The notes below the pieces were generated by a model. The model made no database searches. It was not told the origin of the DNA and saw only the letters and a program-made list of their open reading frames with translations. Positions 6,140-29,327 of a stretch of DNA of 64,000 nt are shown here, piece after piece. The position numbers and the translations under genes are program-made. The number at the start of each line of letters is the position of its first letter. Positions within the stretch are counted from its first letter, which is position 1. The stretch spans positions 33,542,001-33,606,000 of the forward strand of contig OX597842.1 in assembly GCA_951406725.2 (NCBI GenBank). Reading direction: 5' to 3'. This DNA comes from Octopus vulgaris. Its lineage: Eukaryota.

Positions 6140-7083
6140 AGATCTCCCTCATTGGCTTATACATACATATATACATAGATAAGAGAGTAGGGTGTGATTT
6201 GAGGGAGATTTGGCTGTTATTTCTACCAGGTCTAACTACCATGTAGAGGTCTCCCTTATTGGCTCATACATACATATATACATAGATAAGAGAGTAGGGT
6301 GTGATTTGAGGGAGATTTGGCTGCTATTTCTATCAGGTCTAGCTACCATGTAGAGGTCTCCCCCATTGGCTCATACATACATATATACATAGATAAGAGA
6401 GTAGGGTGTGATTTGAGGGAGATTTGGCTGCTATTTCTACCAGGTCTAGCTACCATGTAGAGGTCTCCCTCATTGGCTCATACATACATATATATATACA
6501 TAGATAAGAGAGTAGGGTGTGATTTGAGGGAGATTTGGCTGTTATTTCTACCAGGTCTAACTACCATGTAGAGGTCTCCCTCATTGGCTCATACATACAT
6601 ATATACATAGATAAGAGAGTGGGGTGTGATTTAGGGAGATTTGGCTGCTATTTCTACCAGGTCTAGCTACCATGTAGATGTCTCCCTCATTGGCTCATAC
6701 ATACATATATACATAGATAAAAGAGTGGGGTGTGATTTGAGGGAGATTTGGCTGCTATTTCTATCAGGTCTAGCTACCATGTAGAGTTCTCCCTCATTGG
6801 CTCATACATACATATATACATAGATAAGAGAGTGGGGTGTGATTTGAGGGAGATTTGGCTGCTATTTCTACCAGGTCTAGCTACCATGTAGAGGTCTCCC
6901 TCATTGGCTCATACATACATATATACATAGATAAGAGAGTGGGGTGTGATTTGAGGGAGATTTGGCTGCTATTTCTACCAGGTCTAGCTACCATGTAGAG
7001 GTCTCCCTCATTGGCTCATACATACATATATACATAGATAAGAGAGTGGGGTGTGATTTAGGGAGATTTGGCTGCTATCTCTA
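6140..7083. repeat. ~107-bp tandem repeat, about 8-9 copies
   Basis: ATACATAGAT recurs at 6171, 6278, 6385 and onward; near-identical units. Confidence 0.95.
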
Positions 7084-7090
7084 TCCTTCA

Positions 7091-7291
7091 AAATGTGACC
7101 GAGTGTGTACCGTTGGCGATTTTCTTTTCCTCCATCTTCCCTTCTTTGGATCTTCCCTTTTCCTATGTTTCTGACGAAGAGCTCCCCTCGAAACGTTAAA
7201 TCCTCCTTTCCTGAGCGTCCAATAATACTATACTTGTACCACGTCCTCGCGTTGTTGTGTTTTCTCTTTGTGTTTTCATGTTTGGATTAAC
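7091..7291 (+). mobile_element. ~200-bp hammerhead-bearing element (Penelope pLTR-like)
   Basis: Homologous to 10768-10974(-); ends at (TA)n; contains a hammerhead motif. Confidence 0.7.
7167..7201 (+). ncRNA. Minimal type I hammerhead ribozyme motif
   Basis: guuu-CUGACGA-a-gag(cuccc)cuc-GAAAC-GUU-aaa: intact core, short stem II, palindromic stem III. Confidence 0.65.
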
Positions 7292-7318
7292 TATATATAT
7301 ATATGTATATATACATAT

Positions 7319-7520
7319 TAGTTGAAATTTACAAAAAGCAAAACAAAAAACAATAGACGAAGACTGGTGTATAATCAACAAGCACGTCTATTATTTTTAC
7401 GCTCGGGAAAGCTGAAAACGTCTTTTACGTTTCGAGCCTACGCTCTTCAACAGAAAGGGATAAGAGGAAAAAACCCCAGAAAGAATGAAAAGCACGCGTG
7501 GAATTCTGTGGTTCAACACA
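7319..7520 (-). mobile_element. Hammerhead-bearing element, related subfamily, tail-to-tail with 7091-7291
   Basis: Minus 7422-7457: cuuu-CUGUUGA-a-gagc(guag)gcuc-GAAAC-GUA-aaag. Shares downstream TTTCCyGAGCGT..AATAATA with the 7091 copy. Confidence 0.65.
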
Positions 7521-7564
7521 TATATATACGTATATATATATACATATATATATACAAGCACACA

Positions 7565-10410: not shown

Positions 10411-10768
10411 TGGCTGTGTGATAAGTAGCTTGCTAACCAACCACACGGTTGCGGGTTCAGTCCCACTGCGTGGCATCTTGGGCAAGTGTCTTCTGCTATA
10501 GCCCCGGGCCGACCAATGCCTTGTGAGTGGATTTAGTAGACGGAAACTGAAAGAAGCCTGTCGTATATATGTATATATGTATGCGTGTGTTTGTGTGGCT
10601 GTGTTTGTCCCCCTAGCATTGCTTGACAACCGATGCTGGTGTGTTTAGGTCCCCGTCACTTAGCGGTTCGGCAAAAAGAGACCGATAGAATAAGTACTAA
10701 AAGGTGGTGCTCCAGCATGGCCGCAGTCAAATGACTGAAACAAGTAAAAGAGTAAAAGAGAAAAGAGT
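10408..10768 (+). mobile_element. SINE family A
   Basis: Head through tail, with an internal deletion in the tail. Confidence 0.88.
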
Positions 10769-10970
10769 AATCCAAACATGAAAAGCACAGAAAAAACACA
10801 ACAACGCGAGGACGTGGAACAAATATAGTATTATTGGACGCTCAGGAAAGAAGGAAAGAAGGAGGGTTCAACGTTTCGAGCGGAGCTCTTCGCTGGAAAC
10901 ATAGGAAAACGAAAGATCCAGAGAAGGGAAGACGGAGGAAACAAATCGCCAACGGTACACACGCGTTCAC

Positions 10971-10974
<4 letters not shown>
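10768..10974 (-). mobile_element. Hammerhead-bearing element (decayed core)
   Basis: Reverse complement closely matches 7091-7291; motif CCAGCGA-a-gagc(ucc)gcuc-GAAACGUU at 10866-10900. Confidence 0.7.
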
Positions 10975-11020
<46 letters not shown>

Positions 11021-11028
11021 GTGTGTGT

Positions 11029-11543
11029 GTGGAGGTGCAATGACCTAGTGGTTCGCGCAGCGGACTCGCGGTCATAGGTTCGCGATTTCGATTTCCAGAC
11101 CGGGCATTGTGAGTGTTTATTGAGCGAAAACACCCAAAAACCTCCACGAAGCTCCCGCAGTGGATGGCGATGAACCCTGCTGTACTCTTTCACCACAACT
11201 TTCTCTCACTCTTTTTTCCCATTTCTGTTGTTCCAGTAATTCAAAGGAGCCAGCCTTGTCACACTCTGTGTCACGCTGAATCTCTCCGAGAACTAAGTTA
11301 AGGGTACATGTGTCTATGGAGTGCTCAGCCACTTCTACGTTAATAAATGAGCTGCGACGTCACTGGTGCCAAGCTGTATCGGCCCCTTTGCCTTTCCCTT
11401 GGATAACATCAGTGGGGTGGAAAGGGGAGGCTGGTATGCCTGGGCAACTGTTGGTCGTCCATAAACAACCTTGCCCAGACTTGTGCCTCGGAAGATAACT
11501 TTCTAGGTGCAATCCCATGGTCATTCATGACCGAAGGGGGGTC
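11029..11543 (+). mobile_element. SINE family B (tail type 3)
   Basis: Family B head and body, then a distinct tail ending CATGACCGAAGGGGGGTC. Confidence 0.85.
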
Positions 11544-28865: not shown

Positions 28866-29074
28866 TGTCTGTCTGTGTGTGTGTGTATATAAGGCAGTGA
28901 GTTTTATTCCTGGACTGGGCTGTGCATTGTGTTTTTGAGCAAGACACTTTACTCCACGTTACTCAAGTTCACTACAGCGTCGGCACTGGTGTGTGCATAT
29001 GAATAATATTGTTTTTGTACGTGCATATATATACACACAAATATACTTATAAATTGTGTGTGTGTATGTATATA

Positions 29075-29250
29075 CAAACGATAATCTAAACAAGTTTTTT
29101 TCTCTCCGTAATTTTTACCTCTCTTCGCAGATTTCCTGAAGAAGAGCTTAGGCTCGAAATCTCAACGACTTCTATTTTTCCTGAGTGTTAAACTAATTCA
29201 CCTATATGGTGTTCCCTCGTCTGTCTGTCTTTTGCTCAATTTTGAACCAT
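29075..29250 (+). mobile_element. Hammerhead-bearing element (GAGC-stem family), decayed
   Basis: CUGAAGA-a-gagc(uuag)gcuc-GAAA at 29136-29159, then TTTCCTGAGTGT as in the other copies. Confidence 0.6.
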
Positions 29251-29277
29251 ACATATATACATAACTACATACATACA

Positions 29278-29327
<50 letters not shown>

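What the first reader, a model, noticed from the sequence alone, without database searches (positions are those of the whole stretch)
7091..7520. Dispersed ~200-bp elements in (TA)n carrying minimal hammerhead ribozymes
Seen: four related copies (7091+, 7319-, 10768-, 29075+) keep CUGnnGA-A-GAGC-loop-GCUC-GAAAC-GUH. Stem I covaries (guuu/aaa versus cuuu/aaag) while the loops and surroundings diverge. Two copies sit tail-to-tail around a (TA)n. Known: Penelope-like elements carry minimal hammerheads with palindromic stem III that work as dimers. Inference: a non-autonomous, ribozyme-processed retroelement family that prefers (TA)n.
Basis: partly seen in the sequence, partly recalled or inferred. 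Interest (0 to 1): 0.72.

Follow-up and report, generated by a model that had tools for sequence, protein, structure and literature searches.

The report
Penelope-type mini retroelements with hammerhead motif
These are four copies of a very abundant family of about 200-base non-coding jumping elements that end in TA microsatellites and carry the small hammerhead-type RNA motif known from Penelope-like retrotransposons, which likely copy them; the motif probably does not need to cut for them to spread, so this is a new example of a described kind.

Summary
The four copies are real and homologous (2 of family A, 1 of B, 1 C-like); a covariance model finds exactly these four in the window. Each family has thousands of genomic copies; family A probably has about 40,000.

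They are retroposed. The 3' end is fixed and abuts (TA)n, the 5' ends are ragged, and there is no ORF, inverted terminal repeat or Pol III head.

Family A's inherited core matches the published Penelope "min-HHR" point for point. Families B and C carry U instead of the catalytic A6 in 29 of 35 sampled copies and still amplified. None of the four window copies is an intact canonical motif.

Insertions do not start at the predicted cut site (3 of 33 truncated copies, 0.76 expected), so ribozyme processing is not supported.

The same genome holds intact Penelope-like elements (RT plus GIY-YIG) that also end in (TA)n. One carries a min-HHR in its terminal repeat, but none shares sequence with A, B or C. 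The Penelope link is therefore circumstantial and the autonomous partner is unidentified.

Verdict: a new member of a known kind, and earlier notes of this scan already describe these families elsewhere in this genome.

The parts
7086..7292 (+). Copy 1, family A element (near full length). Its 3' end ...GGATTAACT abuts (TA)n.
   Evidence: It is 89-94% identical to 40 scored genomic copies.
7167..7201 (+). Hammerhead-like motif of copy 1. Helix I is 7167-7170 with 7198-7201. CUGACGA is 7171-7177 and the extra A is 7178. Helix II is 7179-7182 with 7186-7189 and has one C-C mismatch. GAAA is 7190-7193 and the ACGU palindrome is 7193-7196. H17 is U at 7197. The predicted cut lies between 7197 and 7198.
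7293..7318 (.). (TA)n tract shared by the 3' ends of copies 1 and 2.
7319..7533 (-). Copy 2, family B element. Its 3' end ...AAATTTCAACT lies at 7319 and its 5' end runs into a second TA tract (about 7521-7555).
7418..7462 (-). Hammerhead-like motif of copy 2: cUUU-CUGUUGA-A-GAGC-GUAG-GCUC-GAAA-CG-U-A|AAAG. Position 6 is U, which is non-canonical.
10768..10982 (-). Copy 3, family A element. Its 5' end abuts (TA)n (about 10975-11019). Its 3' end abuts another repeat.
10862..10905 (-). Decayed motif of copy 3 (CCAGCGA in place of CUGACGA).
29068..29279 (+). Copy 4, an old C-like element (71-82% identical to its relatives). TA-rich repeats follow it.
29127..29171 (+). Motif of copy 4. The CUGAAGA core is kept. 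Positions 15.2/16.2 are lost (GAAAUCUC) and helix I has two mismatches.

Best explanation
These are copies of a superfamily of short (about 200-250 nt) non-coding retroelements that insert by target-primed reverse transcription at (TA)n microsatellites and are likely copied in trans by the reverse transcriptase and GIY-YIG endonuclease of Penelope-like elements (PLEs).

Shown:
- Three homologous families (A, B, C) each have thousands of copies.
- The 3' terminus is fixed and joined to (TA)n, and the 5' ends are ragged.
- The elements have no ORF.
- The segment conserved between families has the layout of the published PLE minimal hammerhead.

Inferred:
- An endonuclease nicks (TA)n, and the 3'-OH primes cDNA synthesis at the element's ...AACU(AU)n end.
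- The hammerhead-like hairpin, together with a second conserved block (UUUCCYGAGYGU), serves mainly as the RNA handle the PLE protein recognises. Self-cleavage would be dispensable.
- Family A could still cleave weakly as a dimer; families B and C probably cannot.
For: Abundance:
- First-look candidates number 2824, 2393 and 1477 for A, B and C.
- Exact family A words occur 2887 times (28-mer) and 4780 times (terminal 23-mer). Reversed controls gave 0.

Retroposition:
- In 91 copies picked only by an internal 28-mer, 58 start at reference position 8-32 and 33 are 5'-truncated at scattered points.
- The 3' flank holds (TA)>=4 in 72 of 91, against 13.9% of 30-nt windows as background.
- In the first sample, 30 of 30 ended ...GGATTAACT followed by a TA tract.
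- 8 of the 12 copies that start at reference position 18 join a (TG)n tract at microhomology.
- One copy shows a target duplication, (TA)nTGGGCCAATAT.

Motif:
- The family A core is gUUU-CUGACGA-A-GAGC-UCC-GCUC-GAAA-CG-U-U|AAAC.
- It has the features listed in PMC4209133: an unpaired nucleotide between 9 and 10.1, a G10.1-C11.1 pair, no loop 3 and a palindromic 15.2/16.2.
- H17 differs by family (U, A, C) and is G in only 2 of 76.
- The distal pair of helix I covaries.
- The motif and one downstream block are the main segments conserved across families.

PLE context:
- There are at least 6136 GIY-YIG candidates, many in 781-aa open frames.
- PLE-1 has RVT_1 plus a C-terminal GIY-YIG domain and 456-bp terminal repeats that are 99.3% identical.
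- All 11 PLE-1 3' units retrieved by their hammerhead motif run into (TA)n, directly or after a tail of about 40 nt.
- 5 PLE-1-family loci passed the descriptor for a min-HHR with the U3-A8 core.
- PLE-2 also ends in (TA)n.

Literature:
- (TA)n is a reported preferred target of Naiad PLEs (PMC8557442, passages).
- Hammerhead catalytic mutants did not affect insertion by a lizard PLE in vitro (PMC11167929, passages).
Against: - No PLE examined shares sequence with A, B or C. The family profiles hit only independent solo copies in 162 kb of PLE-containing loci.
- No PLE protein fragment (E <= 1e-5) was found in 313 kb around 100 copies.
- 0 of 30 loci holding the family A terminal 23-mer had anything other than family A upstream.
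- The elements lack the partial-tandem (pLTR) shape of PLE insertions.
- A microsatellite-specific LINE as the mobiliser was not tested.
- Helix II never varies, so it has no covariation support, and only one helix I pair covaries.
- Part of the core's invariance is built in, because the motifs were picked with the expression GAAGAG...CTC[GA]AA.
- Rfam gives no hammerhead hit.
Confidence: 0.6

Rival explanations
1. A SINE-like element mobilised by a microsatellite-targeting LINE (for example of the R4/Dong type, recalled as targeting simple repeats). The hammerhead-like block would be an inherited relic or an unrelated protein-binding hairpin.
For: - The copies are single dispersed units with a fixed 3' end, 5' truncation and microhomology at the 5' junction, all typical of LINE-type TPRT.
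- No sequence link to any PLE was found.
- A published repeat annotation of an octopus genome lists Dong-R4 LINEs and about 900 unclassified SINE families among recently active elements (PMC13282606, passages). I have not shown that the window comes from that species.
Against: - There is no tRNA, 5S or 7SL head (no Rfam hit).
- The conserved block matches the PLE min-HHR layout in eight separate features.
- Both PLE families examined in this genome end in (TA)n.
- LINE 3' ends were not examined, so this rival stays open.
Confidence: 0.2
2. One reading: an active retrozyme-like element whose transcript is cut by the dimeric hammerhead, possibly circularised, and then reverse-transcribed.
For: - The family A core is fully canonical in 41 of 41 distinct A-type motifs at position 6.
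- The ACGU palindrome allows a dimer (PMC4209133).
- 3 of 33 truncated family A copies start at reference positions 119-121, the predicted cut.
- Two contigs in one run join the element's 3' part back to its 5' part.
Against: - Three starts against 0.76 expected is not compelling. My own Poisson arithmetic gives P about 0.04, or 0.18 if the doubtful one is dropped.
- None of the 9 copies truncated beyond reference position 40 in the second sample (30 copies) starts at the cut.
- 58 of 91 copies run uncut through the site.
- The units are dispersed singles, not tandem arrays.
- B and C amplified with U6 in 29 of 35.
- The published min-HHR cleaved only weakly in vitro (PMC4209133).
Confidence: 0.12
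3. The motif is not hammerhead-derived at all. The conserved GGCUCGAAAC block would then be, for example, a B-box-like internal promoter element, and the resemblance to a hammerhead would be chance.
For: - GGCTCGAAACG loosely resembles the Pol III B box (recalled consensus GGTTCGANNCC).
- The loose CUGANGA...GAAAC pattern is expected 0.44 times per window by chance.
Against: - Eight separate hammerhead features coincide in family A, and H17 avoids G in 74 of 76.
- The strict descriptor gave 0 hits in shuffled sequence.
- No A box and no tRNA-like fold were found.
- Family A reads CGCTCGA, which is further from a B box.
Confidence: 0.05

Closest known systems
Minimal hammerheads (min-HHR) of metazoan Penelope-like elements (Cervera and De la Pena 2014, PMC4209133; parts 1-2 of 4 read)
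   Same: - Type I order of strands with no loop 3 and a palindromic 15.2/16.2, which implies a dimer.
- An extra nucleotide between A9 and G10.1, and a G10.1-C11.1 pair.
- A short helix I of 4 bp.
- Thousands of mostly solitary genomic copies falling into consensus families.
- The U3-A8 core variant reported there recurs here in PLE-1.
   Different: - Helix II is only 4 bp, against 7-8 bp in Schistosoma and 6 bp in D. virilis as reported there.
- The motif sits in the middle of a discrete unit of about 210-250 nt, not in the terminal repeat of an identified PLE.
- Two of the three families carry U at position 6.
Non-LTR retrozymes of animals (Cervera and de la Pena 2020, PMC7229834, passages; Li, Clavereau and Pollet 2026, bioRxiv 10.64898/2026.07.22.740005, abstract and outline only)
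   Same: Short, non-coding, hammerhead-bearing non-autonomous retroelements proposed to depend on PLEs.
   Different: - Retrozymes are tandem arrays of 150-450-bp units with canonical type I hammerheads, expressed as circular RNAs.
- The elements here are dispersed single units with a minimal motif, and no circular RNA evidence was obtained.
Poseidon PLE of Anolis carolinensis studied in vitro (Frangieh et al. 2024, PMC11167929, passages)
   Same: Cleavage of AT-rich DNA followed by reverse transcription. Hammerhead catalysis was not needed for insertion, which fits the spread of the U6 families here.
   Different: That is an autonomous element studied biochemically. Nothing was tested at the bench here, and the partner PLE is unknown.

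Membership tests
PLE-type minimal hammerhead (min-HHR) | Catalytic boxes CUGANGA and GAAA | tested here: inconclusive
   Met in family A: A6 in 41 of 41 distinct A-type motifs. Not met in B/C: A6 in 4 of 35, U6 in 29 of 35 and C6 in 2 of 35. Of the four window copies, only copy 1 has both boxes.
PLE-type minimal hammerhead (min-HHR) | Unpaired nucleotide between 9 and 10.1, and a G10.1-C11.1 pair | tested here: met
   GA-A-GAGC...GCUC is seen in the family alignments that were not selected on the motif. In one search it is fixed by the way the motifs were picked.
PLE-type minimal hammerhead (min-HHR) | No loop 3, palindromic 15.2/16.2, and H17 not G | tested here: met
   ACGU is present with C-G in 51 of 76. 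The remainder are UG or CA, as expected from CpG decay. H17 is G in 2 of 76.
PLE-type minimal hammerhead (min-HHR) | Helices supported by covariation | tested here: inconclusive
   One helix I pair covaries (CG 27, GC 25, GU 11). Helix II never varies.
PLE-type minimal hammerhead (min-HHR) | Location in the terminal repeat (pLTR) of a PLE | tested here: not met
   No PLE ORF fragment in 313 kb around 100 copies. No homology to PLE-1 or PLE-2. 0 of 30 terminal-word loci have a longer parent. Only a small part of the genome's PLE diversity was examined.
PLE-type minimal hammerhead (min-HHR) | Self-cleavage (as a dimer) | not testable with these tools
   Thermodynamic folds of monomers and dimers do not decide it.
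Non-LTR retrozyme | Head-to-tail tandem arrays of the unit | tested here: not met
   The copies are dispersed single units. Only occasional neighbours share a TA tract.
Non-LTR retrozyme | Expressed as circular RNA | tested here: inconclusive
   Only assembled contigs of runs guessed to be RNA were available.
Pol III SINE (tRNA, 5S or 7SL head) | Recognisable small-RNA-derived head | tested here: not met
   No Rfam family at gathering score in the window, and none of these up to E 10 in 7050-7560.
Retroposon inserted by target-primed reverse transcription | Fixed 3' end, variable 5' truncation, no terminal inverted repeats | tested here: met

The most novel reading that the evidence does not exclude
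The hammerhead-shaped RNA is the recognition handle by which tens of thousands of non-coding RNAs hijack Penelope reverse transcriptase, not a working ribozyme. Families with a catalytically crippled U6 core spread as well as the canonical one, which makes this genome a natural mutagenesis experiment on what PLE hammerheads are for.
Probability: 0.4. Interest if true: 0.55.

Novelty: new member of a known kind. Interest (0 to 1): 0.3.

Why it matters
What the minimal hammerheads of Penelope-like elements do is still unsettled in the papers read here. This genome offers closely related high-copy families with a canonical (A6) and a non-canonical (U6) core, both of which succeeded. That comparison can be taken straight to the bench to ask whether cleavage or only the fold matters for mobilisation. 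It also suggests that part of what octopus repeat annotation calls 'unclassified SINEs' may be PLE-dependent elements aimed at TA microsatellites; that is inference. The element kind itself is already described, and earlier notes of this scan describe similar families (about 210 bp with a fixed TA junction; an A6U core) elsewhere in this genome.

Tried and rejected
- Rfam: no hammerhead hit.
- Search for the autonomous partner:
  - I scanned 27 loci around GIY-YIG hits (162 kb) with a min-HHR descriptor. It found only the PLE-1 motif and one solo B-type copy; shuffled controls gave 0.
  - The A, B and C profiles hit only solo copies in those loci.
  - An A-like copy 2.5 kb from a PLE remnant in L096, and B-like copies near endonuclease remnants in L076, L078 and L094, are separate insertions.
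- A DNA search with the 3' half of family A returned nothing, because very common words are skipped. I replaced it with exact-word searches.
- Target duplications could not be read in most copies because the flanks are microsatellite.
- RNA: no RNA holder was listed. The four runs laid are contigs whose RNA label is a guess, so they show neither expression nor ends.
- RNAalifold over the three families prefers a weak long-range pairing of GCUCG with the second conserved block (-3.7 kcal/mol, no informative covariation). I did not adopt it.
- I considered whether that block supplies a re-wired hammerhead strand, a lead from earlier notes. It lacks CUGANGA and is CCGAG in family B, so I rejected this.
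- A MITE reading is rejected: there are no terminal inverted repeats and truncation is 5'-only.

Full report
**What is there**

The window lies in a 2.8-Gb, 227-contig animal genome. Earlier notes of this scan call it octopus-type; I did not try to name it.

The four elements are real. nhmmer with profiles built from genomic relatives finds only these four:
- family A at 7086-7301(+) and 10768-10982(-)
- family B at 7294-7533(-)
- an old C-like copy at 29068-29279(+)

Cross-family hits (E 9e-9 to 6e-34) show that the families are homologous.

A covariance model of the 44-nt motif, run with filters off, gives exactly four matches (E 4e-14 to 8e-8); the next hit has E 0.63. Three of the four were in the training alignment.

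Rfam reports no hammerhead family.

**Abundance and age**

| Family | First-look candidates | Identity of scored copies |
|---|---|---|
| A | 2824 | 89-94% |
| B | 2393 | 80-88% |
| C | 1477 | 71-82% |

A 28-nt internal word of A occurs 2887 times and its terminal 23-mer 4780 times. Reversed controls gave 0. With about 91% identity to a reference copy, both counts extrapolate to roughly 4 x 10^4 family A copies. This is my arithmetic and it is rough.

**Mode of insertion**

All 30 copies from the first search end ...CATGTTTGGATTAACT followed by (TA)n. That sample is biased towards full length, so I drew 91 copies solely by the internal 28-mer, in chromosome order.
- 58 start at reference position 8-32, that is near full length. 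A few extend about 12 nt further, to ...CCTTCCGGTCATTC.
- 33 are 5'-truncated at scattered positions between 40 and 169.
- Some pairs share flanks (L114/L115, L138/L139, L136/L154 and the two copies in L147), so they are not independent.
- 8 of the 12 copies that start at position 18 abut (TG)n, a microhomology junction.
- The 3' flank holds (TA)>=4 within 30 nt in 72 of 91. Most of the other 19 are cases where the alignment had already run into the TA tract, or are (TACA)n or (TG)n. The background is 13.9% of 30-nt windows.
- Family B ends ...AAATTTCAACT and mostly joins (TA)n, occasionally (CA)n, (TG)n or (TC)n.
- One B/C-type copy shows a clear target duplication, (TA)nTGGGCCAATAT. In most copies none can be read.

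There are no terminal inverted repeats and no ORF. Together this shows retroposition primed at a nick in (TA)n.

**The motif**

Family-level sequences:

| Family | Motif |
|---|---|
| A | gUUU-CUGACGA-A-GAGC-UCC-GCUC-GAAA-C-G-U-U\|AAAC |
| B | cUUU-CUGUUGA-A-GAGC-GUAG-GCUC-GAAA-C-G-U-A\|AAAG |
| C | as B, but with UA, UU or AA at positions 6-7 and C at position 17 |

Family A matches the published min-HHR feature by feature (PMC4209133, parts 1-2 read):
- no loop 3
- a palindromic 15.2/16.2
- one unpaired nucleotide between 9 and 10.1
- a G10.1-C11.1 pair
- a 4-bp helix I

Counts over the 76 distinct motifs:
- The distal helix I pair is C-G in 27, G-C in 25 and G-U in 11. This is one compensatory change between families.
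- Helix II never varies.
- H17 is U, A or C according to family, and G in only 2.
- The 15.2/16.2 departures are UG or CA, as expected from CpG decay.
- Position 6 is A in 41 of 41 A-type motifs, but U in 29, C in 2 and A in 4 of 35 B/C-type motifs.

Because independent insertions share U6, it was present in the source copies: B and C amplified with a non-canonical core. The motifs were picked with the expression GAAGAG...CTC[GA]AA, so invariance at those letters is built in. The unselected family alignments show the same letters.

Between families, the motif and one downstream block (UUUCCYGAGYGU) are the main conserved segments.

**Is the RNA cut?**

If cleaved RNA were the usual template, truncated copies should pile up at reference position 120.
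- 3 of 33 start at 119-121, one of them doubtful, against 0.76 expected if starts were uniform.
- In a second sample of 30 drawn by the terminal word, which partly overlaps the first, none of the 9 copies truncated beyond position 40 starts there.
- Most copies run uncut through the site.

I therefore find no clear cleavage footprint. This fits the in vitro result that hammerhead catalytic mutants did not affect insertion by a lizard PLE (PMC11167929, passages).

**Link to Penelope-like elements**

- The genome has at least 6136 GIY-YIG candidates, many in 781-aa open frames.
- PLE-1 (L083) has 456-bp direct terminal repeats that are 99.3% identical, a 359-aa ORF1 and a 781-aa ORF2. ORF2 has RVT_1 plus a C-terminal GIY-YIG domain.
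- All 11 PLE-1 3' units that I retrieved by their hammerhead motif run into (TA)n, directly or after an optional tail of about 40 nt that also starts the element body. This is the described PLE 'tail' signature (PMC8557442, PMC11167929, passages).
- 5 PLE-1-family loci passed the descriptor for a min-HHR with the U3-A8 core variant, UUGAUAA-GGUUC...GAACC-GAAA-CAUG-U-U, about 85-95 nt from the 3' end.
- PLE-2 (L086) also ends in (TA)n and shows the inverted duplication typical of PLEs.

So PLEs here share both the target and the motif class with A, B and C. No PLE examined shares sequence with them, so the mobiliser is inferred, not identified. A microsatellite-specific LINE remains an untested rival.

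**RNA data**

No RNA holder was listed. The four runs I laid are assembled contigs whose RNA label is a guess. They contain the repeat at high summed depth, but show neither transcription nor ends.

**Comparison and verdict**

This is the known class of dispersed PLE-type minimal hammerheads, here packaged in discrete non-autonomous units of about 210-250 nt aimed at TA microsatellites.
- It is not a retrozyme in the published sense: the units are not in tandem arrays and the hammerhead is not canonical (PMC7229834, passages).
- A recent octopus repeat annotation does not mention hammerheads, by my term search of its main text (PMC13282606).
- My two literature searches for hammerheads in cephalopods turned up no paper describing them. 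That is not proof of absence.
- Earlier notes of this scan describe what read like the same families elsewhere in this genome: units of about 210 bp with a fixed TA junction, and an A6U core.

Noticed in passing
L083:1930-7172 (G000:C16), also L084, L077-L082: An apparently intact Penelope-like element. It has 456-bp terminal repeats (99.3% identical), a 359-aa ORF1 without a Pfam match, a 781-aa RT plus GIY-YIG ORF2 and an optional tail of about 40 nt. It is flanked by (TA)n on both sides. In related PLE-1 copies (L078, L079, L081, L082, L084) the terminal unit carries a minimal hammerhead with the U3-A8 core covariation; in L083 itself that motif did not pass the descriptor (short helix I).
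   Followed up: partly
window 7380-7400 and 7204-7224; all three families: A second block, UUUCCYGAGYGU, lies 20-35 nt after the predicted cut and is conserved across families A, B and C. It repeats the GAGCG of the helix II 5' strand and could pair with GCUCG as an alternative to helix II. Its function is unknown.
   Followed up: partly
window 10590-10767: Another abundant repeat (...GGTGCTCCAGCATGGCCGCAGTCAAATGACTGAAACAAGTAAAAGAG...) abuts the 3' end of copy 3 directly instead of (TA)n. The same junction recurs in L133, and the repeat flanks other copies (L016, L043, L094).
   Followed up: no
window 11031-11100: A tRNA-like SINE head (GGTTCGCGATTTCGATTTCC, box-B-like) sits just beyond the TA/TG tract next to copy 3. 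The Rfam gathering search did not report it.
   Followed up: no
window 6900-7085: Two tandem units (about 108 bp, the second partial) of another dispersed repeat lie directly upstream of copy 1. They are present at high summed depth in the laid runs.
   Followed up: no
window 7268/7269 joined to 7103/7104 (table 5c, run X1): Two low-depth contigs join the 3' part of a family A element back to its 5' part without a TA tract (12 or 23 letters in between). This could be a head-to-tail or rearranged variant somewhere in the genome, or an assembly artefact.
   Followed up: no
L061:1700-1760, L182, window 7091-7533: Single TA tracts often hold two or more independent insertions of these families, in tandem or facing each other. 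In the flanks of 100 sampled loci there were 32 extra copies in about 313 kb.
   Followed up: partly
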